From NCBI GenBank assembly GCA_938002015.1, contig CALLAU010000029.1:6169-70168 (forward strand): a stretch of 64,000 bases of DNA, given 5' to 3'. The translations under genes and the position numbers were made by a program. The notes under the pieces were generated by a model that worked only from the letters and a program-made list of their open reading frames with translations, ran no database searches and was not told the DNA's origin. This DNA comes from an uncultured Bdellovibrionales bacterium (GTDB lineage Bacteria; Bdellovibrionota; Bdellovibrionia; Bdellovibrionales; UBA1609). Positions within the stretch are counted from its first letter, which is position 1; every line of letters begins with the position of its first letter. Shown here in pieces: positions 14,804-38,289 of this stretch.

Positions 14804-14900
14804 AAGTATGACTCTGCGAGTATGTGAATTTCTTGTCAAACTTTAATCTTTATTAGAAAGTATTCTCTATTTAAAAGCTCAGCTCTAAGGGGGACTCAGG

Positions 14901-20583: not shown

Positions 20584-22149
20584 TTATGTACCACAAAAAG
20601 TGTTTTTAATTCGCTGCTCTATCTTTGGAGCACTACTAAACTTTAAATGATCCTCATCGTCTGATAAGTCAATATATGGTGACTTTAAAATTTCAGTAAA
20701 TTTATGAAACAAGCTAAAATCATTTTCATAAGCCTTCTTAATAACTTCTTCAATCATGTGATTTCTAGGTATATAAACAGGGTTTACTCGATCTGATATT
20801 TCTTTAAGAACAGTTCTAGATTCTACACCTTCAATCTTTAACTGTTCTTTCCATAAAGTTTTAAATGTGTTTAAATTTTCATTTTCTTTATATAGCTTTA
20901 AGTCATCATTTTCTTCTTCAAATAGATCTGGAAGATTTCTAAAAGCGTTTGTAAAATCTATTTTATATTTATCTAAGTACTTTATCCATAGATTAAGAAT
21001 TTTTCTTTTCTCTAATCGCTCATCTTCACTTTTTATACTATTACTTTCTTTAAAACCTAGTTTTTTAAACATGAGCTTTTCAAAGTAAGTTTCATATAAG
21101 TCTAAAAACCCTTCTAAAATTTTTGTATAATTCTGAGCTTTTGTATTTCTTTCTTCATCATCACTATAAATTTCTAGTAAACTCTCCGCTAGCCTTGCAA
21201 GATTCCATCTTAAAACTACAGGCTGATTTTTATAAGAATACCTCCCACCTTGATCTATAAAACTAAACACTTTATTTAAATCAGTTTCATCTAAGAAAGC
21301 ACACGGGCCATAATCAATTGTTAAGCCAAGGGCTGAGGTGTTATCTGTATTCATCACTCCATGAACAAAACCTAGGCTCATCCATTTAGCTACAAGCTTT
21401 GCTTGCTTATCTACAAGGTTTTTAAAGAATTCAAAAGGCAAATCATCTGATTTAAGATCAATATCTGGATAAGACCTCTTAACTAAATAAAAGAGCAGAG
21501 TTTTAAGTCCTTCTTTATCACCTCTAGATGCAAAGTACTCAAAATGACCTACTCGAATTAGACTCTCAGAAACTCTAGTTAAAATTCCTCCTGCTAGTTC
21601 CCCTTCACTTCTATATACAGTCTCTCCTGTCGTCACAGCACAAAGGCTTCTCGTTGTAGAAACTCCTAAGGCATACATAGCTTCACTTACAATATACTCT
21701 CTTAACACAGGCCCTAGAGGAGACCTTCCATCACCAGATCTAGAAAACTCTGTTCTTCCTGAACCTTTAAGCTGAACATCGTAGAGTTTTCCATCAAGGC
21801 CTTTGAGCTCACCTAAAAGATGTGCTCTACCATCTCCAAGAACAGGTGAAAAATGACCAAACTGATGTCCAGAGTAAGCTGTAGCTAAAGGAATTGAAGA
21901 CTTATGAACCTTAAACCCCGAAAACAGCTGCTCTATTTCCTTTAAATCAATTTGGTCTTTTGCTGAAAAAGAAATTTTTAAATCAAGAGCTAAATCCTCA
22001 TTCCATTTAATAATTTTTGGAGCGCTTGTGCTAGATGGATTGATTTTTTGAAAAAATCTAGATGGCAACTTAGAGTACGTGTTTATAAATTCAATTTTAT
22101 GTACAGCCACTTTATTTAATTTTTGCAATACACTTAAACTCAACAGCAA
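20584..22149 (-). CDS. selO: protein adenylyltransferase SelO (YdiU/UPF0061)
   Basis: ATAYSGHQFGHFSPVLGDGRAHLLGE..., LKGSGRTEFSR.GDGR, GVMNTDN are hallmark SelO pseudokinase-fold motifs. The ORF overlaps the upstream RidA gene by 38 nt. Confidence 0.85.
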   Translation of the reverse strand: MLLSLSVLQKLNKVAVHKIEFINTYSKLPSRFFQKINPSSTSAPKIIKWNEDLALDLKISFSAKDQIDLKEIEQLFSGFKVHKSSIPLATAYSGHQFGHFSPVLGDGRAHLLGELKGLDGKLYDVQLKGSGRTEFSRSGDGRSPLGPVLREYIVSEAMYALGVSTTRSLCAVTTGETVYRSEGELAGGILTRVSESLIRVGHFEYFASRGDKEGLKTLLFYLVKRSYPDIDLKSDDLPFEFFKNLVDKQAKLVAKWMSLGFVHGVMNTDNTSALGLTIDYGPCAFLDETDLNKVFSFIDQGGRYSYKNQPVVLRWNLARLAESLLEIYSDDEERNTKAQNYTKILEGFLDLYETYFEKLMFKKLGFKESNSIKSEDERLEKRKILNLWIKYLDKYKIDFTNAFRNLPDLFEEENDDLKLYKENENLNTFKTLWKEQLKIEGVESRTVLKEISDRVNPVYIPRNHMIEEVIKKAYENDFSLFHKFTEILKSPYIDLSDDEDHLKFSSAPKIEQRIKNTFCGT

Positions 22150-22534
22150 TTGGCGTTGGAAGAGAACCCACTTCTACAGTTGTTCTACATGGTCCTGACT
22201 CAACTGAGAAATATTCAGCATAAACTTTATTAAAGTCTTTAAAATCGTTTTTCATGTTGGTTAAAAAAACTTGCGTGTCTATTAAGTCTTCTAAACCTAA
22301 ACCTGAGGCTTCAAGTACAAGTCGTACATTCTCTATTACGGCGTGTGTTTGAACTTTAATATCATAACTTAAAATATTTCTATCTTCATCAAGCTTAACA
22401 CCAGGAATTTCTTTTGAGTTCTTTTTCCTTGGCCCAACACCAGATAAGAATAAAAAATCTCCAACACGTCTAGCGTGTGGATAGGCGCCAACAGGCTCAG
22501 GGGCTTTTTCACTATTTACAGTATTATCACTCAT
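22112..22534 (-). CDS. RidA/YjgF/TdcF-family deaminase (AmnD-like candidate)
   Basis: 140 aa. GAYPHARRVGDFLFLSG and C-terminal CRTTVEVGSLP..IAVEF.CIA follow the RidA fold signature. Confidence 0.75.
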   Translation of the reverse strand: MSDNTVNSEKAPEPVGAYPHARRVGDFLFLSGVGPRKKNSKEIPGVKLDEDRNILSYDIKVQTHAVIENVRLVLEASGLGLEDLIDTQVFLTNMKNDFKDFNKVYAEYFSVESGPCRTTVEVGSLPTPIAVEFKCIAKIK

Positions 22535-22558
22535 TATAAACTTTATCCTTTTATACTT

Positions 22559-23668
22559 TTAAGACCAACCACCAAGTGTGCCTTGGTGTGATTTCCAGTC
22601 AAAATACCATCTATCATGATCTGGGTCCCATTCATCCCATGTCGGGATCTCTTCTAACTTATTTTTATAGTTTTCAGGTACAAGCTCTTCAGCAATAAAA
22701 GCTTTTTGTCTTTTTAAAGGATATGGGTTTCTAAGTTCAAAACCTAAAACTCCAAGTACTGAACGCGCTACATACCAAGTAGCTTGAGGGTTCCAACCAT
22801 GCGCTATTTTTATAACAACACCTAAGCCTTCTGGATAATCTGGATGCTCTATAGCTAAACCTAAAAGTCCATCAGCCCCTTCTTTTGCAATCACTTTTCT
22901 ATTACAAGATTTAATAACTGTTGTATCAAGCCTATTAAACCCCCCAATAAGATCAGGGTTATCTAAAAAAGCATCCCATATCCAGTCTTCATCTTTATTT
23001 TTAACTAACCCAGCATAACACTGAGCAAGTTCTTTAACCGTCATTGCAACTGTTGGAAGTCCATCCCCGTCTCTTGCAATATGACTTGCTTCATAGTCAC
23101 TCCCTAAATATCTTTTTACAACATCAAGGTAGCCTTTAAAAATAAGGTGTGAGGGTAGAGTATACCCTGCTCTATTCCAGCCTTTAAGTTTTGCACCCTT
23201 TAATATAGCAGCATGATGACCAGATGAATTATTATACCACCTTCTTGGGCGTCTTACTTGTCTACCAAATTGAACAAGAGGAAGGTCAAGTGGAGTTTGC
23301 ATTAAGCCCCACTCCCCTTCACTTAAAAGAGACTGAGAGGCCGCAACATGAGCTGCAGTTCCATTGTGACTAGCTAAGGCTATAGATTTTTGCTCAGGTG
23401 TCGTTGTTTCTTTTAACTCATCAGCAAAAACTTTAATATAAAATGGCTTCATCATACTTCTACCATAGCAAAGCACATTCCCACCAAAAGAATGAATCAA
23501 TTTATCTCCAGAGTACCAAGCAATAGCTCCATGAACCGTATTTTCACTTACGTTATTTCTTCTAAAATCAACTAATGGCACCCATTCAACATCACGTCCA
23601 GAAGGAAGGCTTTTAACTTTTTCACCAAGTGGGCTTTTTGGATAAACTTCAGACTCAGTTTTTTTCAC
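22559..23668 (-). CDS. asparaginase-II (PF06089)-like Ser-Lys amidohydrolase
   Basis: GRSMMKPFY (SxxK) and KEGADGLLGLAI resemble the RS..KP and K.GAEG motifs of Rhizobium-type asparaginase II. From memory only. Confidence 0.5.
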   Translation of the reverse strand: MKKTESEVYPKSPLGEKVKSLPSGRDVEWVPLVDFRRNNVSENTVHGAIAWYSGDKLIHSFGGNVLCYGRSMMKPFYIKVFADELKETTTPEQKSIALASHNGTAAHVAASQSLLSEGEWGLMQTPLDLPLVQFGRQVRRPRRWYNNSSGHHAAILKGAKLKGWNRAGYTLPSHLIFKGYLDVVKRYLGSDYEASHIARDGDGLPTVAMTVKELAQCYAGLVKNKDEDWIWDAFLDNPDLIGGFNRLDTTVIKSCNRKVIAKEGADGLLGLAIEHPDYPEGLGVVIKIAHGWNPQATWYVARSVLGVLGFELRNPYPLKRQKAFIAEELVPENYKNKLEEIPTWDEWDPDHDRWYFDWKSHQGTLGGWS

Positions 23669-24656
23669 TTAAAACCTCATCACCATCTTTGCTGCTATCA
23701 TCAGAACTTAAAACATTTCTGTTACCCTTATAAACTTCAGCATTTTCTTCATCAAACTCTAAATCACCAGTAGATTTATCAGTTGGCGTAAGCCCTACAA
23801 CAGCTGCTCCAGTTCCGTGAACAGGTTTATAACAAAAAACTTCGCCTTTAAAATTATTAGTTGAACCCATTACAGTTGAAAACCACCAAAAAGGCTTGAA
23901 CGCTACAACCTTTTTACTCACTCTAGCTTCTCTATGAAACTGACGAGAAAGCTGAGCTACATCCTCTAATCTTCCTTGAGATAAAAACTCTAAATATTTT
24001 TGATTCCACTCTTCATCTTTAAGCGAATGGATCCTTTCAGGTTTTGAGTAATCTATTTCTTCATCAAGGTATCTGTTTGATAAAGAAGAAATCACTACAG
24101 CAACAGCTGTTTTTCCTTCTTTTTTAAGCGCTTCAACAGCTGCTTTACCTAGAACAACTGTTTCCGCTCTATCAGAATAAACATTACTTGAAACAATTGA
24201 AGCTTTAAATTTATTATCTGGGTTAAGTAGTTTTAAAGCCACAACAGAGCCTGTATCAATTGGAAAGCCTTTATAAGCAGTAGTTCTTGCCTTTAAGCCT
24301 CTTTCTCTTGCGCACTCAACATAGGTGTTAGCAAAGTCCACATCCATTTTTAATTTATAAGGAATAGATCCTAACTCATGCCATTCTTCATCAACTAAAG
24401 TCCACTCAGGCTCTTTCATAGCTTGGACTTGATGACCTAAAATACTAAACCAGTATGAAGAGTATATTAAAATCACATCTGGATTTATTTCTTCAATTTC
24501 ATCACGAACTTTTTTAAAAGCCTTATTAAGCTCAGTCCATTCAGGTTTTTTCTCAGGGCAAAGAAGTAAGTGTGGTAAACCAGGAACTAAAAATCCTTTT
24601 TTTATGGGAGAGTCAGTTTTAATTTCTTTTTTTATTTCTTTCTTACTAGTCTCCAT
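23655..24656 (-). CDS. LigB-fold extradiol dioxygenase subunit, AmnA (alpha, non-catalytic)-like, with Ser/Asp-rich C-terminal tail
   Basis: FLVPGLPHLL, PDVILIYSSYW, KGFPIDTGS, EARV, GTGAAVVGL parallel AmnA as I recall it. 4-nt gap from the beta-subunit gene. Confidence 0.65.
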   Translation of the reverse strand: METSKKEIKKEIKTDSPIKKGFLVPGLPHLLLCPEKKPEWTELNKAFKKVRDEIEEINPDVILIYSSYWFSILGHQVQAMKEPEWTLVDEEWHELGSIPYKLKMDVDFANTYVECARERGLKARTTAYKGFPIDTGSVVALKLLNPDNKFKASIVSSNVYSDRAETVVLGKAAVEALKKEGKTAVAVVISSLSNRYLDEEIDYSKPERIHSLKDEEWNQKYLEFLSQGRLEDVAQLSRQFHREARVSKKVVAFKPFWWFSTVMGSTNNFKGEVFCYKPVHGTGAAVVGLTPTDKSTGDLEFDEENAEVYKGNRNVLSSDDSSKDGDEVLSEKN

Positions 24657-24660
24657 AAAT

Positions 24661-25533
24661 TTAAGACCTCCACTCTACAACGGCGTTACCTGTTCCAATA
24701 ACTGTTCCATACCCATGAACAGTGGCAGGACTTGTTGGCATACCCATGGCTTCCATCATCCATGAAAGACCACCGGCATCTGTTTCAGCATTTGTTTGCT
24801 CCGTAAAATCAGGTAAGAAATCAATTAATGCTCTTGAATCCCCTGCTTTCATAAGGTCAATCATTTTCATATCCCAAATATACTGGCCGTGGTGTTCAAT
24901 ATGTTCTTTTGACATATCTTCAGGAAGCTCACTTTCTGTTGTAAAATGCCTATGTGAAAGTGAGTGACTTGCAAGAAGCACAACTTTTTTATCACTCTCT
25001 TCAATCGCTTTTTTTGTCGCTCTACCTAATTGTTTCATTTCTTCTTGTAAGACATCCATTGAAAAATACTTTGAAGCACCATTTGAAGAGATTCCAACAA
25101 TTTTTTTATCCCACAAAGGGTTTGTCATATGACATGAAACAATAGTTCCATAGTCCACTCTAAAATCTGGGTTTTTCATCATCTTTGTAAGCATTCCTTC
25201 ATGAGCTGCATTCTTACAAATACTCTCAGCTAACGGCACATCCACTTTTAGATCATAATGATATCTAAAAAGATTAGGAAAAATAGGATCTACTGATAAA
25301 GATTTAAACTCCTCTACTCCTAAAAAATGAGTCCCAATCTGTGTTCTCCAGTGCGGTGAATGAACAATTAAAGTATCATAATCAAGTTCACTTAAACTTT
25401 TTCTTAGTCTTTCATACGCCCAGCGAAGATTTTCCCAACCACACTCAGATTTTGGCTCATTCTGCTCAGGGTTTTCTCCATACACTAAGTGAGGAGGATG
25501 AGGCGCTAAAACACCTGCTACAATTTGTCCCAT
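24661..25533 (-). CDS. class III (LigB-type) extradiol dioxygenase, 2-aminophenol 1,6-dioxygenase beta subunit (AmnB)-like
   Basis: MGQIVAGVLAPHPPHLVYGENPEQNEP, HSPHW, DPIFPNLFRY, KMMKNPDFRVDYGT, LSHRHF, PEDMSKE, GYGTVIGTGNAVVEW track Pseudomonas AmnB almost motif for motif (from memory; needs BLAST). Confidence 0.75.
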   Translation of the reverse strand: MGQIVAGVLAPHPPHLVYGENPEQNEPKSECGWENLRWAYERLRKSLSELDYDTLIVHSPHWRTQIGTHFLGVEEFKSLSVDPIFPNLFRYHYDLKVDVPLAESICKNAAHEGMLTKMMKNPDFRVDYGTIVSCHMTNPLWDKKIVGISSNGASKYFSMDVLQEEMKQLGRATKKAIEESDKKVVLLASHSLSHRHFTTESELPEDMSKEHIEHHGQYIWDMKMIDLMKAGDSRALIDFLPDFTEQTNAETDAGGLSWMMEAMGMPTSPATVHGYGTVIGTGNAVVEWRS

Positions 25534-25859
25534 ATAGACCTCTTACTTTATACTGCTAATGCTTAATAAAAACCAAAAACTACGCTTTTTCCTTTTGATT
25601 TACAAATATCGAGTACCAAAAAGTAACTAATAAAACTTAAAAAAATTCGCTTTCCTATAAAACTTAAAAAAGCTATATAAAGTATTAAAAATACTCTTGT
25701 TTCCATTTGGAAATGACCCTCAAGCTCCCTATTTATAGGCATAATGTTTGTAATTTTTTTCAGTTTCTTGTTTATTTTTCACTCAAATAAAGAGTCTATG
25801 CATTAGGCAGTTTTGTGCAGTAGTTTTTCTGTTCAAACAAAACCATAAGGAGAATAATA

Positions 25860-26267
25860 ATGTCTAAAATTTTAACGACTCTAGCGCTTAGCCTAGTTTT
25901 AAATACAACAGCTCACGCACTTACAGACTCTGAGTTATCTCAGTGTAAACCACCAAATGTAGTTGCTGAGATTTCTGCTGAAAGCCAAGAACTAGCTCAA
26001 GGCCTGCAAATTTTAAATTCTTGGATGCAAAGCAGCCCTAAAACTGTAGAAGCAGCACCAGTTGCTCAAGAGGTTGTAAAGTCTTTTCTTGCAAGTGCTA
26101 CAAGTTGTGATGAGGCTTCTAGTTACTATTTAGCTTATTACAGAAATTTAGCTGAAACCGCATACAATGCTGCTGTTAAAATCACATCTGAAGAAATTAC
26201 TACTGAAGAGGCTGATGTATTAATGGTTAGAGCTTTCTCGTATAATCCAGCAGACATAGTGAACTAA
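25860..26267 (+). CDS. small secreted hypothetical protein
   Basis: SD aaggaga. Signal peptide ..TTAHA|L. 135 aa, followed by a terminator. Confidence 0.6.
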   Translation: MSKILTTLALSLVLNTTAHALTDSELSQCKPPNVVAEISAESQELAQGLQILNSWMQSSPKTVEAAPVAQEVVKSFLASATSCDEASSYYLAYYRNLAETAYNAAVKITSEEITTEEADVLMVRAFSYNPADIVN

Positions 26268-26297
26268 TAAATAATACTCTATTAGTTTAAACTTAAT

Positions 26298-26333
26298 AAA
26301 ATCACGTTTTTTTTAAAGACGTGATTTTTTTTT
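26298..26333. terminator. rho-independent terminator between convergent genes
   Basis: 10-bp stem AAAATCACGT/ACGTGATTTT (26298-26307 / 26319-26328), then a T run to 26333. Confidence 0.8.
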
Positions 26334-26367
26334 ACGAAAATATTAAATTTTGAAACTATACACATGG

Positions 26368-27270
26368 CTAGTCTAAATAATTAGGTGGAACAACTAACAA
26401 ACCACTTCTATACTTTTCAGATCTTGTCCATCTAGGGCCACCACCGTTAGCTAGTGGATTAAACGGGCTATACTCTAAGTTATCAGCCGAAAAAAGACTT
26501 CGTGTACTGTGAGCTTCAATAGCATTACCATAAGATACTAAAAAGACATGATAACCACCATTTGCTGTTCCTACTCCAAAAGGCATTGAGCTTAAGAACC
26601 TTGGAGGGTTTGTTCCAAAATTTACTAAGCTTCTTGCATCATCAACTTTATTAAAAAGATACGTCCCGCTTCTTATTACAGTATTATATCTAGCTTCATT
26701 ATAACCCCATACATTTAGTGGGTTTCCTGGAGCTATTGCTCTATCATCTCTATCCCAGTCAGCATTTTTTGATGGGTTTGGATTCCAGTAAAGCATTTTC
26801 CAGCCTAAGGCTTGAAGAGCATGCTGAAGTCTATTTCCTATTTTATCTGGAATATAAGAATCAATTTTTTTCCACTGATGATTTAAACCTACAGCTTCAA
26901 AACCTTGCTTTAAACAACGCCTTGAAAAATCAACACAACTCATATTCTCCATTTGATCTTCTAAGTTTGTATCAACACCGTTGTCTCTTAAAATAGGTTT
27001 AATGGGAGTAAGCCTTCTTCCGTTAGCCACCCTAACTTTCCACCCTTTAGTGTACTTCCTATTTCCATAAAACTTAGTAACACCATATTGATTTAAAAAA
27101 GATAGATGACTTTGATAAGTGTCTTCTAAGCACTTTGAAGCTTCAATTGTTAACTCTACTATTTTAGATTGATGAAGAGCCTTCTCTTCTTTAGAAAACT
27201 CGATTCCAGTATAAACAGCTGCATTTGAGTTAAACGAAGTAAACACTAATAACATAAATGAATATAACAT
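26368..27270 (-). CDS. secreted hypothetical protein
   Basis: 300-aa ORF with signal peptide ..FNSNA|A. No family recognised. Confidence 0.55.
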   Translation of the reverse strand: MLYSFMLLVFTSFNSNAAVYTGIEFSKEEKALHQSKIVELTIEASKCLEDTYQSHLSFLNQYGVTKFYGNRKYTKGWKVRVANGRRLTPIKPILRDNGVDTNLEDQMENMSCVDFSRRCLKQGFEAVGLNHQWKKIDSYIPDKIGNRLQHALQALGWKMLYWNPNPSKNADWDRDDRAIAPGNPLNVWGYNEARYNTVIRSGTYLFNKVDDARSLVNFGTNPPRFLSSMPFGVGTANGGYHVFLVSYGNAIEAHSTRSLFSADNLEYSPFNPLANGGGPRWTRSEKYRSGLLVVPPNYLD

Positions 27271-27351
27271 AAATCCCCCTAAGATTTAGTTTTCATTATG
27301 TAGTGTATTACTTAAAGCTAAGCAAACCCTTTAGCCTTTTAAAGAAGCAGA

Positions 27352-27894
27352 CTATGCTTCTTTTTTAGCTTCTACTACTTTTTTAAGGTTATTAAGACCC
27401 TTATTAAAGTCTTTTTGAATCATAGATTTTACACCAAAAGCAAAATAAAAGAATTTATCCACTAAGCCTTTATTACTAGATTCCATAAGCCAAGTTAATT
27501 CTGTTTTACTTTCTTCAACAGATTTAACTCTAAAAAAGGCATAAGCTTCACCTGTAAAAGGTTTATAAAACTCTAACTTCATCTTAACAAACTCATTCTC
27601 AACTACATCAGTAATTGTCTGCTTGCCATCACCTTCAGATTTACTTTTCCAGATAACACTTGCTCCCCTTCCTACTGAAGGGTCACTGTATTCTAACTCC
27701 ATCTCAGGGTCTCTTTCAAACCAAGGGCTCCACTGCCTCCAGGCTTTTAAATCCTGAATATGCGTGATCACGACAGCATTAGTCTGATTAAGCGTGATTG
27801 TTTCTTTAACACTGTATTCACTTGGCTGCATCATACTTATAATAATAAGGGCTAACACAAAACAAAAACCTATAATTGCAATTTTCTTTTTCAT
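27352..27894 (-). CDS. SRPBCC (START/Bet v1-like) superfamily protein with N-terminal membrane anchor
   Basis: Size, hydrophobic N-terminus and W.QWSPW, W.S...G.G motifs resemble polyketide-cyclase/SRPBCC proteins. AGGAG abuts the first ATG (27903), so the ATG at 27894 (9-nt spacing) is preferred. Confidence 0.55.
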   Translation of the reverse strand: MKKKIAIIGFCFVLALIIISMMQPSEYSVKETITLNQTNAVVITHIQDLKAWRQWSPWFERDPEMELEYSDPSVGRGASVIWKSKSEGDGKQTITDVVENEFVKMKLEFYKPFTGEAYAFFRVKSVEESKTELTWLMESSNKGLVDKFFYFAFGVKSMIQKDFNKGLNNLKKVVEAKKEA

Positions 27895-27908
27895 AATTCT
27901 CATCTCCT

Positions 27909-27942
27909 AAAAAAAAAGCTCTCTAAACTAATTAAGAGAGCT
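27909..27942 (-). terminator. rho-independent terminator after the alpha-2-macroglobulin gene
   Basis: On the minus strand: 8-bp stem AGCTCTCT/AGAGAGCT (27935-27942 / 27917-27924), 10-nt loop, then 9 T (complement of A-run 27909-27917). Confidence 0.75.
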
Positions 27943-27968
27943 CTTTTAAAATTTTAAACTGCTTTTAA

Positions 27969-30900
27969 TTACTTAACAACAGTCATCTTTGTATTTGGCA
28001 CTTCACCAAATAAGCCTGGCTCATATAAAGCTTCTACACGTGTTTGTGGAAGCTCAAAAGAACCCGGGTTATTAAGTTGATACTGATAACTTAAAGTCAC
28101 AGAACCTGCTGTTAAAAGCTCAAAATACACTTTATAACCACTGTATGATTTTTGAGCAGAACTATAAGCTCCCCAGCCATCACTTAAGATATTTGCTCCT
28201 GATGGAATTGGATCAAAAAGTGCTACATGTGGCTGAACAGATGGCGAATCAATCGTGATATCAACCTGAATAAGGTCTCCTGCAGAGAACACTCCACTAT
28301 TGTCAGATTTATTTGTTACTACTTTTGTAACTTTTAAACCTTGGTAGTTAGGTGCATCTAGTTTAACTGCAGCTTGAGCTACAACTGAAATCCACGGTTT
28401 ACCTTGTCCATCATGACCTACTGTTACTGTATCTTCAGTTCCTGTCCATGGAGCCGAAGTTCCTTGGTCTTCATCACTTGCACTACTCCAGTTAACTAAA
28501 GAAGTCGTGCTAGTAGTAGATACGATTGTCGTTCCACTTACTGCAACAGCTTCATAAGTTTTAGCAAAACCCATTAAGCCTTTTAAAACCCATGCTTTCG
28601 TTCTGCTTGTATACCACTTACCATTTTTATTAGCCTGAACTAGTCCAACAACAAGGTTATCTAAATAGTTCTCTGAGCTTTTCACACCCGTTGTAAGAGC
28701 AGCATTACTTTGAGCTTTTACAAGTCTAGCAGTAGCCACAACTTCATCTGCATACCCGTATAAGCCATAAGATGGAGAGCCCTTTAAAATTGCTGAAGTG
28801 TCTTTTAAAGATAAAGACGCTTCTTGAATGAACTTCATAACTGAAGAAGTCATTAATGCTTGCGGCTCAACATAAGCTGTAAGAGTAGCCATATCAGTTA
28901 AAATACTAATAGGATAAGTTCTAAACTCCTTTATTTCTTTAACTAAAGTCAAAACTTCTTGAGCATTACTTAATGCTCCTTCAAAACCCATTTCAAGCAT
29001 TGCATTAGCAACCTTAACTTTTGCAACTAACCAAAGTTCATCACTAGGGTTACTTGAAAGGTAAGTTGCATCAAGAGTTCCATCAGCTACCTTGCTAAAA
29101 GAATTTACTAATTTATCTCTAAGGCTTGATGGCATGATCTCCATTGCCCATGGCTTCATTGCTAACAATTGAACTAAATCAACAGTTAACCAAAAACTTC
29201 CTCTGCTAGCAGCAGAATAGTACTTAACAAAACCTTCACTATCTACTTGAGATAAAAGTTCAGAATATGCTCTTACCATTGCAGATCTGTTAGTCTCATC
29301 GCTTTCAACAAGCGCTTTAATCATTTTACCTTCAACTGTAATGTCAGCAAAGATATCCTCAGAAATTGCTTTTCTTACAGCATAATCAGCTGAATCAACT
29401 AAACTGCTAAAGACTTTAGTATCAATAAGACCCTGACCAGCTAGGGCTCTTTCATCTTTCTTTAAAGAAAACTCAACAGAACCAGACTCTATTTGAGCTA
29501 AGAACTCATCTTGTACTGTTAATGGTACTGATGGACTTACAACTTGAGTTGGAGGAGTTAAACCATCAACTCTAATACCGTTTTCATTATACACAGTAAT
29601 TGTATAATCAATAGTATTAGCTCCTTCAGGAATTTTAATATTCTCTAAAGCAAGTGATTTTGAACCACCTTTTTCTACAAGAACTGAAGATGTAGTCGAT
29701 CTTGGACTTACAACACCGTCATCACCTTTAACTATGTAATCAATCACTACTGTAAACGTCTCACCAACTTTACCGTTGTTTTGAACTGTTACTGTAGCTG
29801 GAAACTCATCACCTGTTCTAGCAACAGATGGAATATTTGAATACGTTTGAACTTCTTGGCTAGAAAGGTATGAAGTATCACCAGTTCCATACTTACTTAA
29901 AGAATCACTTACTACAGCAAAAACTTTAAATTTAGTTAATTTGTCGTTAAGCTTAAAACTAACTTGAGCTTGTCCGTTAACAACAGGAACGTTTGTTTCC
30001 CAAGCAACTAAAGCATCAAATAACTTTCTTTGAAAAGACTCTAGCTCACTACCTGAACCACCTTCTTCACCATATTTTGCACGATCATCTGCCGCCGCAG
30101 CGCTAACAATTGCTGCTTCAGCTTCTGCAACAGAATTTAAATAATCAAAGTTATTTACTGTAACAACATTATGCCCTCTCATTCCCATAAGAGATTCAAG
30201 AATATTCATTGATTTATTCTCTTTAAGTTCAAGAATTTTTTCTTCAACAGCAATAAGAGTTACTGAAGCTGAGCTTAGATCACCCATTTGAGCATCTACA
30301 TTCACAGTAGCAGTTGCTACATCGCCTGGCTTATACTCCTCTCTGTCCATATCAACACTTACATCAAGAGCATATTTTTCCCAGTCAATTTTTAAATTTG
30401 CAAAACCTAATCTGTAAGCAGGCTTTCCTAAATCAAGAGATTTAAAGTCTACATTCGTTTCAGATCTTCCAGCTACAAAGTATACTGAAGCAAAAACGTT
30501 TGGAGCACTCTTAGCACTTACAGGAACGCTTACAAACCCGTTTTGACAAGCTTTATTATCAATAAAAGACTCAACAACTTCTGCTCTTTCTAGAGTAACT
30601 AAAGCTGAGCAAGTTTCAAAAGGGCTCTCAAAACTAAGTTTCGCACTTTCTCCACCTTTGTAAGCCTCTTTATCAGCAGCTAACACTACACCTTTTACAT
30701 CTTCATCAAAGTAGTAGTAGTCGTTTTCAGCTTGAACAAGACCTTCAATATCCACAGAGAATTTAGAAAAAGTTTTTTGACCAAGTCCTTTACTAGCAAC
30801 ACTTAAGATGTAGTAACCTTGAGTTAAACCTTGAGCTGAGCAATTTGCCACACCTTCAACTAACTCACAGTTTGGCATCCAGTTAGTTGCAACAAGTTCC

Positions 30901-33809
30901 TTTTCAATAGTGTTTTTAATGAAACCACCAAAAACCTCTTCACCGATAACATGAGTCTTTACTTCAGAAACACTAATTTCAAGGTCAGAGATTTTTGTTA
31001 CAGGCTTACCTTCTACACTTAAGTCAACAGCCTGAAGTTTTGCTTCTTCTAAAGTACCAGAGGTTACTTTAGAACCAATGTATGAGTTAGAGCTATAAAT
31101 ATTTTTTGAAGTTGATACTGTTTGAAACTCACCCATTTGATCCTGGTATTTCATTCTGACAATCATCGCATATGGTCTTTTAGCTAGAGCTAAAAGGTCC
31201 GTAACAGTTTCTCCAGATTCTAAAGCCTGCTCAGCAAGATCAACACTAATTGTACCTTCACTATCAGTAACTAAACCTTTAAGGGTAGCTGGCTGCTCAA
31301 AGTCAGGAAGCTTCACTGCTTCTGTTTCGGAGTTTTCTTGACCAAACTCACCTTGAACAAAATCAAAACCTGTAAAGCCTTCTACATTTAAAGTGTTTGG
31401 AGCAAAGTAATAAGCCAATTCTTCTACTTCTTGATCTCTTGCACCTATACCATTAGCAAACCTAATATAGCCTGAAACTTTTAATTCAGCTGGCTTTATT
31501 AACGGTCCTTTTTCAAGATTTAAATTTGCCGACATTAATGGAACTTTAAACTCTGAAACTTCAATGTCTGTTCCAATAGCTTCATAATAAGAACTCTCTG
31601 GTCTAGATTTAATTCTTATACTGTATGAACCTAGGTCAGCTGTTACAGGAACCTGCCATTTAAAATCAGCAGCTCCATTTACCCAATTTAGCGGGAACGT
31701 GTATTCAACATCTGAATTGTTAGATGAAACTATAGCTTCTGGTGGTAACTTTGTTGAATCAACACTCGTAAAGCCTTCTTGATTTGGGAGAACAGCTGTA
31801 AGTTGCACAGGAACTGTTTGACCAGGTTTAACAAGGTTAATACCTACTAGTGAATGAATATAAACTGAACCATCATTTATATCAGAATATGTAAACTCAA
31901 CTCCTGGAGCATAGTTTGCAACTGTTCCATCAGCACGATTAGAACTATGAGTAAATGCCATATCTTCACTAGTCGACGCTGCCACAAAGTAGCTTCCCTC
32001 ATCGTATTTGTATGAACTACCTTCTGGGCAGTTTACTGAAATGCCATTTTGAGAGAACTTATAAAGTCCATCTGTATCCGTTTGTCCTGTTTTAACAATA
32101 TTGTTATTACAGTCATAAATATCAACTTTAGCACCTGCAACAGCAAGTCCTGTTGAGTAGCTCGTTACCCATGCTATTGACTCAGACTCACCTTTTTTAA
32201 GGTGAACGTTTAAGTCAGTTAGTACAGTTAAATTATAAGCAGGGACTTTTTCGTTTGAAATACTACTTTTAACTTCAACAGCGTATAATCCTGATTTTTT
32301 AGTGCCACCATACTCAAGACTTAAAAAAGTATTTAGAAAATCTTTTTGGTTTATTTCTCCATTTAAAACTACTTCTTCAGTTGTGTTTGAATAACCTAAT
32401 TGGTCAAGAGGGCTTACGTAGTACTCATCATCACCTAGATATGAACTCTTACTGTCATATGCAACAACTAGCTCTAAAATTTGAGACATATTAGTTATTG
32501 GCATCCAGTTTCCTACTGATGTCCCAGTTTTAACAACTGTTACTTTTTGATTTAAATTCATAATTGAAACTGGAAGAGCTGTATTCCCTTCAAGCTTTCT
32601 TTCCATAAAAGTAAGACGCTCTGGAAACTCAATAATCTCTGAGTAAGATCCAAAAATAAGATTATAAGTATTTGATAGCAAGCTTCTTCCATCTGCGTCT
32701 TGAAGGCCCTCAGGCAGATGAACTCTAGCTACAGTTTGAGGCTCAACCCTAACATTTCTAAAGTTTAGATTTGAAACTAGCGCATCATCTAAAGAAAAAA
32801 GTTTTAGCGAGTATGCAAGTCCACCAAGCCAGTTATAAGCAACACCATTTTCACTTGGGTATGCTTTAACAGTCTTTCCATCTTCAGAACCTTGAGGAAC
32901 GTACTCAATATAAGCCTCTTTTACATCACTCCATTTTGCACTTGCAGTTAAACTAACTCTAATAGAACTTTCAGGCATACATAGTGATGAATCTTGAGAA
33001 ACTCTAGAGCAGCTTACTTCTAGTTTAAACTTTTCTCTAACATTTAGAGTTTCGTTTTTATCTACACCTACAGCTGCAGATGAATAAGCTGATTTAAAAC
33101 CAGAAAGACTTAAATTAATTTCGGCACCAGGAATAAGGTCTCTGTTTACAGTTACTAAAGCCCAGTTTCCTTTTTCAAATTCTACACCGTTGTATCTTAA
33201 TCCATATTCTTTTCTAAAAGCTTCATAAAGCTCTTTTTGTTTATCAGCTGGTACTTCAGAAAGAGTGATTTTCTCTGAAGGGTAACCATCTTTAACCGGG
33301 TACCATAAAAAGTTACCATTTGAATTAAAAAGGCTCTCCTTATCAATATCTCCATCAAACGTTATCATAAAAACAGGAGAAGTTTCTCTTAATGAGTAAT
33401 TATATCCTGGAAGATTATATACTGAAGTAACCACTGGTCCTTCAACTACAAACTCATGTTTTAAACTTCCCACTGAATACTTAGTACCAGAAGTTGAAGT
33501 CAGCTCTACAGCCTGCTCAACTCTACAACCTGTACCACCTGGAAGTGGCGAAATATCTCCGTATACATTTTTCTCTAAATCAAGATTGTAAACCCATGTA
33601 GTATTATTATCTGCCCAGTTTCCATACCCTTTAACTTCAGGGTCACAGACAACATTAAAAGGCGTTTCTACTTTTTCCATAGATTCAGGAAAGGCCACTC
33701 TTATTTGCTCAACATCAGAAGAAGACTGCTTAGATGGACTAAAACTGACTTCTGCTTGAGCAGCATTAAATAAGAATAACGCTACAAACATAGTAAAAAA
33801 TATTTTCAT
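27969..33809 (-). CDS. bacterial alpha-2-macroglobulin family protein (1946 aa) lacking a thioester Cys
   Basis: Size. Signal peptide ..NAAQA|E. Repeated Ig-like MG-domain character. FQRKLFDALVAWETNVPV (A2M-domain R..F.ET.(A/F)W motif). Divergent pbpC neighbour. No Cys at all in the last ~870 aa. Confidence 0.8.
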   Translation of the reverse strand: MKIFFTMFVALFLFNAAQAEVSFSPSKQSSSDVEQIRVAFPESMEKVETPFNVVCDPEVKGYGNWADNNTTWVYNLDLEKNVYGDISPLPGGTGCRVEQAVELTSTSGTKYSVGSLKHEFVVEGPVVTSVYNLPGYNYSLRETSPVFMITFDGDIDKESLFNSNGNFLWYPVKDGYPSEKITLSEVPADKQKELYEAFRKEYGLRYNGVEFEKGNWALVTVNRDLIPGAEINLSLSGFKSAYSSAAVGVDKNETLNVREKFKLEVSCSRVSQDSSLCMPESSIRVSLTASAKWSDVKEAYIEYVPQGSEDGKTVKAYPSENGVAYNWLGGLAYSLKLFSLDDALVSNLNFRNVRVEPQTVARVHLPEGLQDADGRSLLSNTYNLIFGSYSEIIEFPERLTFMERKLEGNTALPVSIMNLNQKVTVVKTGTSVGNWMPITNMSQILELVVAYDSKSSYLGDDEYYVSPLDQLGYSNTTEEVVLNGEINQKDFLNTFLSLEYGGTKKSGLYAVEVKSSISNEKVPAYNLTVLTDLNVHLKKGESESIAWVTSYSTGLAVAGAKVDIYDCNNNIVKTGQTDTDGLYKFSQNGISVNCPEGSSYKYDEGSYFVAASTSEDMAFTHSSNRADGTVANYAPGVEFTYSDINDGSVYIHSLVGINLVKPGQTVPVQLTAVLPNQEGFTSVDSTKLPPEAIVSSNNSDVEYTFPLNWVNGAADFKWQVPVTADLGSYSIRIKSRPESSYYEAIGTDIEVSEFKVPLMSANLNLEKGPLIKPAELKVSGYIRFANGIGARDQEVEELAYYFAPNTLNVEGFTGFDFVQGEFGQENSETEAVKLPDFEQPATLKGLVTDSEGTISVDLAEQALESGETVTDLLALAKRPYAMIVRMKYQDQMGEFQTVSTSKNIYSSNSYIGSKVTSGTLEEAKLQAVDLSVEGKPVTKISDLEISVSEVKTHVIGEEVFGGFIKNTIEKELVATNWMPNCELVEGVANCSAQGLTQGYYILSVASKGLGQKTFSKFSVDIEGLVQAENDYYYFDEDVKGVVLAADKEAYKGGESAKLSFESPFETCSALVTLERAEVVESFIDNKACQNGFVSVPVSAKSAPNVFASVYFVAGRSETNVDFKSLDLGKPAYRLGFANLKIDWEKYALDVSVDMDREEYKPGDVATATVNVDAQMGDLSSASVTLIAVEEKILELKENKSMNILESLMGMRGHNVVTVNNFDYLNSVAEAEAAIVSAAAADDRAKYGEEGGSGSELESFQRKLFDALVAWETNVPVVNGQAQVSFKLNDKLTKFKVFAVVSDSLSKYGTGDTSYLSSQEVQTYSNIPSVARTGDEFPATVTVQNNGKVGETFTVVIDYIVKGDDGVVSPRSTTSSVLVEKGGSKSLALENIKIPEGANTIDYTITVYNENGIRVDGLTPPTQVVSPSVPLTVQDEFLAQIESGSVEFSLKKDERALAGQGLIDTKVFSSLVDSADYAVRKAISEDIFADITVEGKMIKALVESDETNRSAMVRAYSELLSQVDSEGFVKYYSAASRGSFWLTVDLVQLLAMKPWAMEIMPSSLRDKLVNSFSKVADGTLDATYLSSNPSDELWLVAKVKVANAMLEMGFEGALSNAQEVLTLVKEIKEFRTYPISILTDMATLTAYVEPQALMTSSVMKFIQEASLSLKDTSAILKGSPSYGLYGYADEVVATARLVKAQSNAALTTGVKSSENYLDNLVVGLVQANKNGKWYTSRTKAWVLKGLMGFAKTYEAVAVSGTTIVSTTSTTSLVNWSSASDEDQGTSAPWTGTEDTVTVGHDGQGKPWISVVAQAAVKLDAPNYQGLKVTKVVTNKSDNSGVFSAGDLIQVDITIDSPSVQPHVALFDPIPSGANILSDGWGAYSSAQKSYSGYKVYFELLTAGSVTLSYQYQLNNPGSFELPQTRVEALYEPGLFGEVPNTKMTVVK

Positions 33810-34059
33810 ATAACCCTCCAGGTATATTAATTTTGTTTATTTTATAGTTCCTTAATATTTTCTAAATAGCGTTTAAATACCATTTAGAGCAGCTTTCTTT
33901 ATATTTTGATAAAGTTTTCACATTTTAAAAGAAAGACCTAATAATGAAGTAATGCCTTAACAAAAAGCGACGAAATGTAACTGAAATTTCTTCAAACACT
34001 TAACATGATTTATTTTTTTGCTTATTTTGTTTGCTTTTTTAAGTGTATAAAGAGATCTG

Positions 34060-36210: not shown

Positions 36211-36272
36211 GTTTAGGTGTCTTATCTTTAAGCTTTTAAGGCCTTGCTTAATTACAAATCGCAAAACCATCT

Positions 36273-36338
36273 TTCGTCTTTTCATCAAGATGACGAACTA
36301 GACCCTCTTATTTTTCGTCACTTTACATAGTTGACGAA
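36273..36338. promoter_or_regulatory. two tandem inverted-repeat operator-like sites TTCGTC-N13-GACGAA
   Basis: TTCGTC 36273-36278 with GACGAA 36292-36297. TTCGTC 36314-36319 with GACGAA 36333-36338. Both have 13-nt spacers, both right arms extend to GACGAAC, and the centres are 41 bp apart. Confidence 0.6.
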
Positions 36339-36447
36339 CATACTTCTTACACACCCTCACCTTTTTTTGACCATTCAAGAAAAAAATTTCATAACTTGTT
36401 CCAAGAGGAAAAACTAAATTTTTAAATAAACCTTGAGGAGGGTATAA

Positions 36448-37074
36448 ATGAAATTATTAGTAGTATTAGTATCAATGTTCGTAGCAACTTCAGCTTTCGC
36501 TGACAGCCAAAGAGACGCTCAAAACGCTTTTAACAAAATGGGTGCTTTAGAAGCTTACAACTCTAGCATGTTCAGCAAAACTGTTGACAACATCTATATT
36601 CCAGGTACTTCAACTTGGGTTGATGGTAACTCACTTTGCAAAAAGAGCGGAATGATCATGACAAAAACTCCAGCTTACAGACAAGTTTGTGTAGCTTGGA
36701 ACTACCGTAACAGCGAAGGCGACAGAAAATCAACTACAAGCTTAAGAGTTGCTCTTAAGAATAACGCTACTTGCACGCAAAAAGTTAACGGCCCAATGCT
36801 TGCTCATCCAATCAACTACACTGCAGAAGTTACTATTTGGGGAGCTAGAAAATCAGGCGAACTTAAGACTGTTGCTGGCGGAAAAGCTAAAGTTTACAGA
36901 TCTTACCAAGAAGCTAAAGAAGCTGGTAGCCCAGTTGCTTTAGGAACAAAAACTGTTTCTAAGTCAGTAGCTACTACTTACAACGTAAACTTCTTTAGAA
37001 AAACAGCACACGACAGATTCGACAACAGCAAAAAAGTTGGATCACACAGATTTGGAGTTGCTACTTGTAACTAA
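36448..37074 (+). CDS. secreted hypothetical protein, probably highly expressed
   Basis: SD gaggaggg. Signal peptide ..TSAFA|D. Marked preference for C-ending Asn/Tyr/Phe codons and GCT Ala, unlike neighbouring genes. Strong terminator. Confidence 0.7.
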   Translation: MKLLVVLVSMFVATSAFADSQRDAQNAFNKMGALEAYNSSMFSKTVDNIYIPGTSTWVDGNSLCKKSGMIMTKTPAYRQVCVAWNYRNSEGDRKSTTSLRVALKNNATCTQKVNGPMLAHPINYTAEVTIWGARKSGELKTVAGGKAKVYRSYQEAKEAGSPVALGTKTVSKSVATTYNVNFFRKTAHDRFDNSKKVGSHRFGVATCN

Positions 37075-37095
37075 GAGTTAATCTCTACCAAATTT

Positions 37096-37129
37096 AAAAA
37101 GCCCAACTAATCTAGTTGGGCTTTTTTTT
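37096..37129 (+). terminator. rho-independent terminator
   Basis: 9-bp stem GCCCAACTA/TAGTTGGGC (37101-37109 / 37113-37121), 3-nt loop, 8 T. Confidence 0.9.
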
Positions 37130-37458
37130 GTTTTAAAAACAACACTTACTCTTAAACCTTAAGGCATGAACCTTTCATACGACTTGCACACTTTATATAC
37201 TCAACCAAAAGTATCTATACGCTTTTTGTTCTTTTAATAAGCAAAAACTAAAATAAGAGCCTCAATTAAAATCACCTTTATTGACTTTAATCTTTAAAAA
37301 AATGAAAGTTTTTCACAAGGGACTCGGGGGATTTTCTTGAAAGCAATTAAACACATTAATACGGGATTTTTACTACTAGCAAAGGCTTTTAAGCAGTTTG
37401 CTGTTTTCTCATTTTTATCTTTTATACGTAATCAAAATCCTAAAGAGGGAGTTTTATA

Positions 37459-38280: not shown

Positions 38281-38289
38281 GTTTCTTAT

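What the first reader, a model, noticed from the sequence alone, without database searches (positions are those of the whole stretch)
20584..25533. amnB/amnA-like extradiol dioxygenase operon with an unconventional gene set (asparaginase-II-like, RidA, SelO)
Five minus-strand genes are packed with a 4-nt gap, a 14-nt overlap, a 24-nt gap and a 38-nt overlap. They encode an AmnB-like catalytic subunit, an AmnA-like subunit, an asparaginase-II-like Ser-Lys amidohydrolase, a RidA-family protein and the AMPylase SelO. In 2-aminophenol degraders, 2-aminomuconate deaminase AmnD is a RidA/YjgF-family protein. Classical amn clusters (amnBACFEDHG) continue with the semialdehyde dehydrogenase and the hydratase, aldolase and decarboxylase genes, and none of those is here. 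Instead there is an amidohydrolase and a protein adenylyltransferase. This suggests a different ortho-aminophenol substrate, for example an amide-bearing tryptophan- or kynurenine-derived or prey-derived compound. Alternatively the locus may belong to a biosynthetic route. Co-transcription with SelO is unexplained.
Basis: partly seen in the sequence, partly recalled or inferred. Interest (0 to 1): 0.7.

Follow-up and report, generated by a model that had tools for sequence, protein, structure and literature searches.

The report
Alternative tryptophan breakdown gene cluster
The flagged genes are the ring-opening half of a conserved seven-gene module, split in two in this genome, that most likely lets predatory and marine bacteria burn tryptophan by an undescribed route through 2-aminophenol; the neighbouring selO gene is only a chance neighbour.

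Summary
The five minus-strand ORFs and their spacings are real. AmnB, AmnA and the RidA protein are bona fide 2-aminophenol-pathway homologues: AmnB is 54-56% identical to solved 2-aminophenol 1,6-dioxygenase beta subunits with all Fe ligands, AmnA has lost them, and RidA best matches 2-aminomuconate deaminase. The "missing" semialdehyde dehydrogenase (AmnC) is in the window, 12.7 kb upstream on the same strand, behind an SDR and a divergent luciferase-like monooxygenase (LLM). In about 160 related loci from Bdellovibrionota, Myxococcota, Acidobacteriota and marine metagenomes, SDR, LLM, AmnC, AmnB, AmnA, the asparaginase-II-like protein (Asn2) and RidA form one operon. SelO appears in none of 172 loci. 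Several loci add tryptophan 2,3-dioxygenase and kynurenine formamidase, and paralogous Asn2-like proteins are fused to kynurenine formamidase beside TDO and an LLM. Asn2 keeps the catalytic Ser-Lys tandems of class 3 asparaginases but, in this clade, not their Zn ligands. Best model, inferred and not shown: Trp to kynurenine; LLM (Baeyer-Villiger) plus Asn2 release 2-aminophenol and aspartate; AmnBA, AmnC and RidA follow. I found no description of this route in the literature searched.

The parts
24661..25533 (-). amnB-like gene: catalytic beta subunit of 2-aminophenol 1,6-dioxygenase (290 aa)
   Evidence: PDB 8ihg_A E 7.5e-108, 3vsg_B 1e-103, 7txy_B 8e-98. The alignment is ungapped at 54-56% identity. 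His12, His61 and Glu250, plus His194 and Tyr128, match CnbCb His13, His62, Glu251, His195 and Tyr129 and are invariant in 31/31 orthologues.
23655..24656 (-). amnA-like gene: non-catalytic alpha subunit (333 aa, with N- and C-terminal extensions)
   Evidence: PDB 7txy_A 5.8e-47, 8ihg_B 2.3e-41. The Fe-ligand and catalytic positions are replaced by Gly, Tyr/Met, Lys, Asn and Thr in 31/31 orthologues. It lies 4 nt after amnB.
22559..23668 (-). asn2: class-3-asparaginase-fold Ser-Lys amidohydrolase (369 aa); proposed to release 2-aminophenol and L-aspartate
   Evidence: Pfam PF06089 2.6e-41. AF2 model matched by Foldseek to ReAV/ReAIV, E 2e-14, 20-24% identity. Arg70, Ser71, Lys74, Ser100 and Lys262 (ReAV Pattern II) are kept in 79/79 sequences. 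The Zn ligands Cys135/Lys138/Cys189 are replaced by Ser148/His151/Asp202 (PMC12292245). It is always in the operon with amnBA.
22112..22534 (-). ridA/amnD-like gene: 2-aminomuconate deaminase (140 aa)
   Evidence: Best PDB hit is 6izh '2-aminomuconate deaminase', 4.5e-25, sharing the ~13-residue insertion that archetypal RidA lacks. Present in 69/80 genome loci, usually directly after asn2. Fused to AmnA in L090, L091, L103 and L116.
20584..22149 (-). selO (YdiU) protein adenylyltransferase gene: an adjacent gene, not part of the conserved module; probable true start is GTG 22110
   Evidence: Pfam SelO 5e-117; NCBIfam NF000658 at 467 bits exceeds its cut-off of 431. No SelO hit in 172 related loci, including 55 with at least 2 kb downstream of ridA. 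Start analysis.
38290..39735 (-). amnC-like gene: 2-aminomuconate-6-semialdehyde dehydrogenase (481 aa)
   Evidence: PDB 4npi/4i1w E 8e-137. 53% identical to the Aldedh gene that directly precedes amnB in 51 genome loci. Present in 79/80 metagenome loci.
39766..41001 (-). LLM: divergent luciferase-like flavin-dependent monooxygenase (411 aa); proposed kynurenine Baeyer-Villiger monooxygenase
   Evidence: AF2 pLDDT 88.7. Foldseek shows an LLM TIM barrel, including luciferases, RutA and type II BVMO, at 12-16% identity. No PDB sequence hit. Conserved next to SDR, Asn2 and AmnC in 42/80 and 77/80 loci.
40998..41774 (-). SDR oxidoreductase gene (258 aa) heading the operon, overlapping LLM by 4 nt; role open
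   Evidence: Orthologue of cluster c4, found in 44 genome loci. PDB hits are generic SDRs, including BacG/YwfH at 2e-32.
25534..38289 (.). 12.7-kb intervening block that splits the ancestral operon (alpha-2-macroglobulin, PBP1C-like, SRPBCC and unknown ORFs)
   Evidence: Pfam. In most relatives amnC abuts amnB. The window's closest relatives (L028, L070) also carry insertions or a separation at this junction.

Best explanation
The region 22112-25533 (amnB, amnA, asn2, ridA) is the ring-cleavage half of a conserved seven-gene catabolic module: SDR, LLM, AmnC, AmnB, AmnA, Asn2, RidA. In this genome the module is split, and the other half lies at 38290-41774. Proposed pathway: tryptophan is opened by tryptophan 2,3-dioxygenase and deformylated by kynurenine formamidase; both are encoded elsewhere in this genome and inside the operon in some relatives. 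The LLM then oxidises the aryl ketone of kynurenine in a Baeyer-Villiger reaction with aryl migration. The product is the 2-aminophenyl ester of the aspartate beta-carboxyl, which can rearrange to N4-(2-hydroxyphenyl)-asparagine. Asn2 hydrolyses this through the same beta-aspartyl-serine intermediate as an asparaginase, releasing 2-aminophenol in place of ammonia, plus L-aspartate. AmnBA cleaves 2-aminophenol to 2-aminomuconic semialdehyde. AmnC oxidises that to 2-aminomuconate, and RidA/AmnD deaminates it to 2-oxohex-3-enedioate. Shown: the homologies, the active-site residues, the operon conservation and the links to kynA and kynB. Inferred: tryptophan as the source (about 0.7), 2-aminophenol as the intermediate (about 0.55), and the Baeyer-Villiger plus hydrolase chemistry (about 0.35-0.4). 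SelO is a lineage-specific neighbour that is probably read through from ridA, without a pathway role.
For: AmnB, AmnA, AmnC and RidA each best match the solved 2-aminophenol-pathway enzyme, with Fe ligands kept in AmnB and lost in AmnA. The seven-gene set is colinear in Bdellovibrionales, Myxococcota L091, Thermoanaerobaculia L092 and L089/L090. In a marine clade it occurs as Asn2 80, AmnC 79 and LLM 77 of 80 loci. kynA lies directly after ridA in L023, L033, L053 and L061, and near the operon in L091 and L093. kynB (E 4e-45 to solved kynurenine formamidases) overlaps ridA in L077 and also occurs in L023, L033, L056 and L158. Dozens of Asparaginase_II::KynB fusion proteins exist; the three examined each sit between an LLM and kynA. 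Kynurenine and asparagine share the 2-amino-4-oxobutanoate skeleton. Asn2 keeps the nucleophile, the bases and the carboxylate-binding Arg, and orthologues keep the Zn site that anchors the alpha-amino acid end (PMC12292245). No KMO, kynureninase, HAAO or ACMSD family appeared among the conserved neighbours that were annotated. An amino-acid permease follows the operon in the marine clade. Type II BVMOs share the LLM fold.
Against: No biochemical data exist. kynA and kynB are absent from the 64-kb window. They are adjacent in only about 9-12 of 172 loci, some of them closely related. The KynB-fused proteins are paralogues (about 30% identity) paired with a paralogous LLM (35-39% identity). The LLM has no specific similarity to known BVMOs, and no flavin reductase is recognised. 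In the window's own clade the Zn ligands that bind the amino-acid end in ReAV are replaced by Ser, His and Asp. Whole genomes could not be checked for kynureninase, KMO, HAAO or ACMSD. The roles of the SDR and the fate of 2-oxohex-3-enedioate are unassigned.
Confidence: 0.55

Rival explanations
1. Same tryptophan-to-2-aminophenol pathway with different chemistry. The LLM hydroxylates kynurenine at C3 like KMO, or acts on another step. Asn2 is a C-C hydrolase that attacks the aryl ketone of kynurenine or 3-hydroxykynurenine directly (retro-Friedel-Crafts), giving a beta-aspartyl-enzyme plus aniline or 2-aminophenol.
For: Same genomic evidence as the best model. Kynurenine is the aryl analogue of asparagine. 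Retro-Friedel-Crafts hydrolases are known (PhlG, phloretin hydrolase; from my own knowledge).
Against: An aryl carbanion is a poor leaving group for a Ser-Lys hydrolase. A 3-OH is meta to the ipso carbon and gives no activation. Aromatic hydroxylation is unusual for LLM enzymes, whereas Baeyer-Villiger oxidation is established for them.
Confidence: 0.13
2. Catabolism or detoxification of free or N-acylated 2-aminophenols unrelated to tryptophan. Asn2 would be an aryl acylamidase that frees 2-aminophenol from an amide conjugate, and AmnBACD would then degrade it.
For: AmnBACD homology to xenobiotic pathways. Asn2 is an amidohydrolase lacking the asparaginase Zn site in this clade.
Against: The module lies in housekeeping contexts without regulators or transporters, next to orn and ahcY. 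It is linked to kynA, kynB and an amino-acid permease. It is widely distributed in predators and marine plankton rather than in pollutant degraders.
Confidence: 0.12
3. Asn2 acts after ring cleavage, as an amidase-type deaminase or hydrolase on 2-aminomuconic semialdehyde or 2-aminomuconate. This would be analogous to the amidase-family deaminase CnbZ of Comamonas (from my own knowledge). It would prevent cyclisation to picolinate, with RidA as a helper.
For: Asn2 sits between amnA and ridA in Bdellovibrionales and directly after amnA in Holophagae, which lack an adjacent ridA. It has an invariant Arg-rich loop suited to dicarboxylates.
Against: In other phyla Asn2 is translationally coupled to the LLM and lies upstream of amnC. 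Paralogues are fused to KynB, an early-pathway enzyme. RidA/AmnD already covers the deamination.
Confidence: 0.08
4. A five-gene functional operon in which SelO AMPylates or regulates the pathway enzymes, or a biosynthetic route (picolinate, quinolinate or NAD, or a natural product).
For: selO abuts ridA with 1 nt or an overlap and no terminator. 2-Aminomuconic semialdehyde cyclises to picolinate (established chemistry).
Against: SelO is absent from all 172 related loci. AmnC and AmnD drain the semialdehyde away from picolinate. No NRPS, PKS or tailoring genes are conserved nearby.
Confidence: 0.03

Closest known systems
2-Aminophenol meta-cleavage pathway (amnBACD / cnbC of Pseudomonas sp. 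AP-3, P. pseudoalcaligenes JS45 and Comamonas CNB-1; the ARO microcompartment locus of Actinobacteria, PMC10470539)
   Same: It has a heterodimeric LigB-type dioxygenase with a catalytic beta subunit and a ligand-less alpha subunit. It also has an AMS dehydrogenase and a RidA-family 2-aminomuconate deaminase. All three are the best PDB matches.
   Different: The lower-pathway genes amnEFGH are absent from the window. Three extra conserved genes are present: SDR, LLM and Asn2. The module is linked to kynA and kynB and sits in a housekeeping context in predatory and marine bacteria, rather than in nitroarene degraders.
Bacterial kynurenine pathway of tryptophan catabolism (KynA, KynB, KMO, KynU, HAAO/NbaC, ACMSD, AMSDH, AMD; Burkholderia cenocepacia type, as summarised in bioRxiv 10.64898/2026.06.05.730449)
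   Same: KynA and KynB occur in or beside the operon in several relatives. The AMSDH and the RidA-family 2-aminomuconate deaminase are shared late steps.
   Different: No KMO, kynureninase, HAAO or ACMSD was seen in any annotated cluster. Their place is taken by the LLM, Asn2 and a 2-aminophenol-type dioxygenase. This implies 2-aminophenol, not 3-hydroxyanthranilate/ACMS, as the ring-cleavage substrate.
Class 3 L-asparaginases ReAIV/ReAV of Rhizobium etli (PF06089; PMC8602277, PMC11024299, PMC12292245)
   Same: The fold is the same. The two Ser-Lys tandems and the adjacent Arg are invariant, so a beta-acyl-serine mechanism is expected.
   Different: Identity is only 20-24%. The Zn ligands Cys/Lys/Cys are replaced by Ser/His/Asp in this clade, and the C135A and C189A mutations abolish asparaginase activity in ReAV. 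Asn2 has an added invariant Arg-rich loop and an acidic, Trp-rich C-terminal motif, and it sits in an aromatic ring-cleavage operon.
4-Hydroxyacetophenone pathway of Pseudomonas fluorescens ACB (HAPMO Baeyer-Villiger monooxygenase plus aryl-ester hydrolase; from my own knowledge)
   Same: The proposed logic is the same: aryl ketone, Baeyer-Villiger aryl ester, hydrolase, then a phenol that is ring-cleaved.
   Different: HAPMO is a class B FAD/NADPH enzyme, not an LLM, and its esterase is unrelated to Asn2. The analogy is mechanistic only and was not tested.

Membership tests
2-aminophenol 1,6-dioxygenase (AmnAB/CnbC, LigB superfamily) | Beta subunit with the 2-His-1-carboxylate Fe(II) triad plus the catalytic His and Tyr | tested here: met
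   His12, His61, Glu250, His194 and Tyr128 align ungapped to CnbCb His13, His62, Glu251, His195 and Tyr129 (residue numbers of CnbCb are from memory). They are invariant in 31/31 orthologues.
2-aminophenol 1,6-dioxygenase (AmnAB/CnbC, LigB superfamily) | Paralogous alpha subunit without metal ligands, encoded next to the beta subunit | tested here: met
   AmnA best matches the alpha subunits 7txy_A, 8ihg_B and 3vsg_A. The ligand positions are Gly, Tyr/Met and Lys. The gene lies 4 nt downstream of amnB.
2-aminophenol 1,6-dioxygenase (AmnAB/CnbC, LigB superfamily) | Closer to aminophenol dioxygenases than to other LigB enzymes (HpaD, MhpB, LigAB) | tested here: met
   E 1e-108 to 1e-98 against APD beta subunits, versus 2.6e-10 for HpaD. 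NCBIfam HpaD and MhpB models score far below their cut-offs.
2-aminophenol 1,6-dioxygenase (AmnAB/CnbC, LigB superfamily) | Catalytic preference for 2-aminophenol | not testable with these tools
   This needs an enzyme assay comparing 2-aminophenol, 3-hydroxyanthranilate and catechol.
amn-type 2-aminophenol pathway | AMS dehydrogenase (AmnC) and RidA-type 2-aminomuconate deaminase (AmnD) accompany AmnBA | tested here: met
   AmnC is at 38290-39735 (4i1w, E 8e-137). RidA best matches 6izh. Both are syntenic in relatives.
amn-type 2-aminophenol pathway | Lower pathway genes (4-oxalocrotonate decarboxylase, hydratase, aldolase, acetaldehyde dehydrogenase) in the cluster | tested here: not met
   No FAA_hydrolase, HMGL-like or tautomerase family was found among the window ORFs of at least 150 aa that were scanned. 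Two FAA_hydrolase genes were seen only in L086.
Class 3 L-asparaginase (ReAIV/ReAV) | Pattern II: Arg47, Ser48-Lys51, Ser80-Lys263 | tested here: met
   Arg70, Ser71, Lys74, Ser100 and Lys262 are kept in 79/79 sequences (PMC12292245).
Class 3 L-asparaginase (ReAIV/ReAV) | Pattern I: Zn site Cys135/Lys138/Cys189, required for asparaginase activity | tested here: not met
   The positions are Ser148 (79/79), His151 (77/79) and Asp202 (79/79). The C135A and C189A mutants of ReAV are inactive (PMC11024299). Asn2 is therefore not filed as an L-asparaginase.
Canonical kynurenine pathway | KynA and KynB associated with the downstream genes | tested here: inconclusive
   They are present in or beside the operon in L023, L033, L053, L056, L061, L077, L091, L093 and L158, and as fusions or neighbours in L086-L088. 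They are not in the window.
Canonical kynurenine pathway | KMO, kynureninase, HAAO and ACMSD | tested here: not met
   None of these families appeared among the annotated conserved neighbours in any locus. Whole genomes could not be examined.
SelO/YdiU protein adenylyltransferase as an operon member | Conserved co-location with the pathway genes | tested here: not met
   The gene is a genuine SelO (NF000658, 467 bits against a cut-off of 431), but no SelO hit occurs in 172 related loci.
Type II (LLM) Baeyer-Villiger monooxygenase | LLM TIM-barrel fold; FMNH2-dependent Baeyer-Villiger activity with a partner reductase | tested here: inconclusive
   The fold is met. There is no specific similarity to known BVMOs (12-16% identity), and no reductase was identified. 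The activity cannot be tested here.

The most novel reading that the evidence does not exclude
A widespread route of tryptophan catabolism that uses none of kynureninase, KMO, HAAO or ACMSD. A luciferase-like monooxygenase performs a Baeyer-Villiger insertion into kynurenine. An asparaginase-fold hydrolase then releases 2-aminophenol and L-aspartate. This would give the 'xenobiotic' amn 2-aminophenol pathway a natural, ancestral substrate. It would also assign two new enzyme activities to large uncharacterised subfamilies of PF00296 and PF06089.
Probability: 0.35. Interest if true: 0.9.

Novelty: new variant of a known kind. Interest (0 to 1): 0.75.

Why it matters
If the model holds, tryptophan, the most costly amino acid, is degraded in Bdellovibrionota, Myxococcota, Acidobacteriota and abundant marine bacteria by a route absent from textbooks and pathway databases. 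Metabolic reconstructions of these predators and of ocean metagenomes would then miss tryptophan catabolism or mis-call it as 'asparaginase' plus 'nitrobenzene degradation'. The model would explain where 2-aminophenol comes from in nature and why amn-type genes are so widespread, including in loci whose physiological substrate is unknown, such as the actinobacterial ARO microcompartment. It would define new reactions for a luciferase-like monooxygenase and a class-3-asparaginase-fold hydrolase, the latter with a naturally re-engineered metal site. It would also supply aspartate rather than alanine as the amino-acid product. Even if only the conservative part is right, the finding corrects the annotation of a roughly 370-aa 'asparaginase' family that is 70-90% conserved across phyla.

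Tried and rejected
1. Riboflavin link. In Acanthopleuribacter the amnB-amnA-asn2 trio sits among ribE, ribBA and ribH. This context is limited to close Holophagae relatives and is absent elsewhere, so I judged it coincidental.
2. Rut-like pyrimidine catabolism (LLM, amidohydrolase, RidA, SDR). I dropped this once AmnB, AmnA, AmnC and AmnD all matched the 2-aminophenol enzymes.
3. Genes inserted inside the operon in some relatives (L007, L013, L014, L019, L022). They encode TonB receptors, imelysin, AAA proteins and the like, and were uninformative.
4. PDB sequence and fold searches for the LLM gave only generic LLM matches, so no substrate clue emerged.
5. The alpha/beta-hydrolase upstream of the SDR in the marine clade is not specifically kynurenine-formamidase-like; its best hit is a carboxylesterase.
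6. Literature searches for aminophenol dioxygenase with asparaginase or Bdellovibrio, for Bdellovibrio with aminomuconate, and for kynurenine with Baeyer-Villiger or 2-aminophenol found no description of this module.
7. Attempts to extend the window's contig by exact-protein look-up failed.
8. The promoter and terminator scans were at background level.

Full report
**Observation.** The five minus-strand ORFs exist exactly as described, with a 4-nt gap, a 14-nt overlap, a 24-nt gap and a 38-nt overlap. Pfam assigns LigB, LigB, Asparaginase_II, Ribonuc_L-PSP and SelO. The last overlap depends on a TTG start at 22149. An in-frame GTG at 22110, one nucleotide after the ridA stop codon (22114-22112), fits the SelO family N-terminus better. 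The genes still abut, and no convincing terminator or promoter separates them.

**The dioxygenase.** The 290-aa protein matches the beta subunits of solved 2-aminophenol 1,6-dioxygenases at E 1e-108 to 1e-98, against 3e-10 for the next LigB family, HpaD.
- The alignment to CnbCb is ungapped over 287 residues at 54% identity, and 56% to 8ihg_A.
- The Fe ligands and catalytic residues are conserved: His12, His61, Glu250, His194 and Tyr128.
- The 333-aa protein best matches the alpha subunits. In 31 of 31 orthologues it has Gly, Tyr/Met, Lys, Asn and Thr at those five positions.

This is therefore a true AmnB/AmnA pair.

**RidA and AmnC.** The RidA protein's best solved relative is a 2-aminomuconate deaminase (6izh, 4.5e-25). 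It shares with 6izh an insertion that archetypal RidA proteins lack.

**The missing genes are in the window.** Clustering the neighbours of 80 related genome loci showed the usual Bdellovibrionales operon: SDR, luciferase-like monooxygenase (LLM), aldehyde dehydrogenase, AmnB, AmnA, Asn2, RidA.
- The window encodes orthologues of the first three at 40998-41774, 39766-41001 and 38290-39735, on the same strand, at 50-59% identity.
- The dehydrogenase's best PDB match is 2-aminomuconate-6-semialdehyde dehydrogenase, E 8e-137.
- A 12.7-kb block separates the two halves here. It carries an alpha-2-macroglobulin, a PBP1C-like gene and others.
- The same junction carries insertions in several relatives.
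- Lower meta-pathway genes were not found among the window ORFs that were scanned.

**SelO.** It is a genuine YdiU/SelO. However, tblastn finds no SelO in any of 172 related loci, including 55 with at least 2 kb downstream of ridA. Its position here is lineage-specific.

**Asn2.** It is 70-92% identical across Bdellovibrionales and Holophagae.
- It has the class 3 asparaginase fold.
- It keeps Arg70, Ser71, Lys74, Ser100 and Lys262 in 79 of 79 sequences. These correspond to the essential Arg47, Ser48-Lys51 and Ser80-Lys263 of ReAV (PMC12292245).
- The Zn ligands Cys135, Lys138 and Cys189, without which ReAV is inactive (PMC11024299), are Ser148, His151 and Asp202 here.
- Orthologues in other phyla keep Cys/(Lys or Glu)/Cys. 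They share Asn2's invariant Arg-rich loop and its WDxWDPDxDRW C-terminal motif.

**Link to tryptophan.** A search of 50%-identity representatives found Asparaginase_II proteins fused to a Cyclase (KynB) domain.
- Dozens of such fusions exist.
- The three examined each sit between an LLM gene and a tryptophan 2,3-dioxygenase gene. One of them also has RidA, Aldedh and two FAA_hydrolase genes close by.
- Among the original 80 loci, kynA directly follows ridA in L023, L033, L053 and L061.
- kynB occurs in L023, L033, L056 and L077, where it overlaps ridA. The L077 protein matches solved kynurenine formamidases at 4e-45.
- Orthologous seven-gene sets occur in a Myxococcota MAG with kynA nearby, in Thermoanaerobaculia and in other contigs. 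LLM and Asn2 overlap by 4 nt, and AmnA is fused to RidA.
- In 80 marine metagenome loci, Asn2 is present in 80, AmnC in 79 and LLM in 77. AmnB, AmnA and RidA are present wherever the contig is long enough, and an amino-acid permease follows.
- KMO, kynureninase, HAAO and ACMSD families never appeared among the annotated neighbours.

**Mechanism (inferred).** Kynurenine is asparagine with a 2-aminophenyl group in place of the amide nitrogen.
- A Baeyer-Villiger oxidation by the LLM, with aryl migration, would give the 2-aminophenyl beta-ester of aspartate or, after O-to-N shift, N4-(2-hydroxyphenyl)-asparagine.
- An asparaginase-type hydrolase would release 2-aminophenol and aspartate.
- AmnBA, AmnC and RidA then act as in the amn pathway.

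This accounts for every conserved gene except the SDR. It also explains the absence of HAAO and ACMSD and the LLM-Asn2 coupling. It remains untested. Literature searches found no prior description.

**Verdict.** The finding is a new variant of known pathways, and I rate its interest as high.

Noticed in passing
window 27969-36210: A 1946-aa bacterial alpha-2-macroglobulin (minus strand) lies beside a divergent class-A PBP with Transgly and Transpeptidase domains. This is the classic A2M/PBP1C pair. The block splits the ancestral amnC-amnB junction.
   Followed up: partly
window 52390-53049: A Haem_oxygenas_2/DUF455-like di-iron protein (CADD/PqqC-like). A similar TENA/Haem_oxygenas_2 gene sits in a folate-biosynthesis cluster in L003, so it may be an alternative pABA synthase.
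   Followed up: no
window 13967-15983: A divergent pair of guanidino-modifying enzymes: a DDAH/arginine-deiminase-like gene (minus strand) and a PAD_porph-like gene (plus strand).
   Followed up: no
window 50739-61543: A dense run of two-component signalling genes: PAS histidine kinases, two OmpR-type regulators and a hybrid kinase.
   Followed up: no
window 22559-23668 (Asn2 residues 125-144 and 344-354): An invariant Arg-rich loop (TPLDLPLVQFGRQVRRPRRW, AF2 pLDDT below 50) and an invariant acidic, Trp-rich C-terminal motif (WDEWDPDxDRW). Both are absent from ReAIV/ReAV and from the KynB-fused paralogues. They may be docking elements or a substrate lid.
   Followed up: partly
L090:11151-12632, L091:12864-14288, L103:15689-17116, L116:14877-16304: AmnA (the non-catalytic dioxygenase subunit) is fused to the RidA-type deaminase in several non-Bdellovibrionota lineages.
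   Followed up: partly
L086:9001-10566, L087:9001-10587, L088:9001-10581; P0253, P0385: A widespread family of Asparaginase_II::kynurenine-formamidase fusion proteins (505-546 aa), each next to an LLM gene and a tryptophan 2,3-dioxygenase gene.
   Followed up: yes
L103:17201-18853, L116:16361-18034: An amino-acid permease with a C-terminal EF-hand pair lies directly downstream of the operon in the marine clade.
   Followed up: no
L089:1-2424: In one genome the SDR-LLM-Asn2-AmnC block lies beside phenylalanine/tyrosine catabolic genes (Biopterin_H, HPPD, homogentisate dioxygenase), forming an aromatic amino-acid catabolic island.
   Followed up: no
window 43182-43949 and 44264-44836: A Vut_1 (YhhQ-type vitamin or queuosine-precursor transporter) gene. 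The oligoribonuclease gene orn is syntenic with the operon head in 27 relatives, which indicates a housekeeping neighbourhood.
   Followed up: partly
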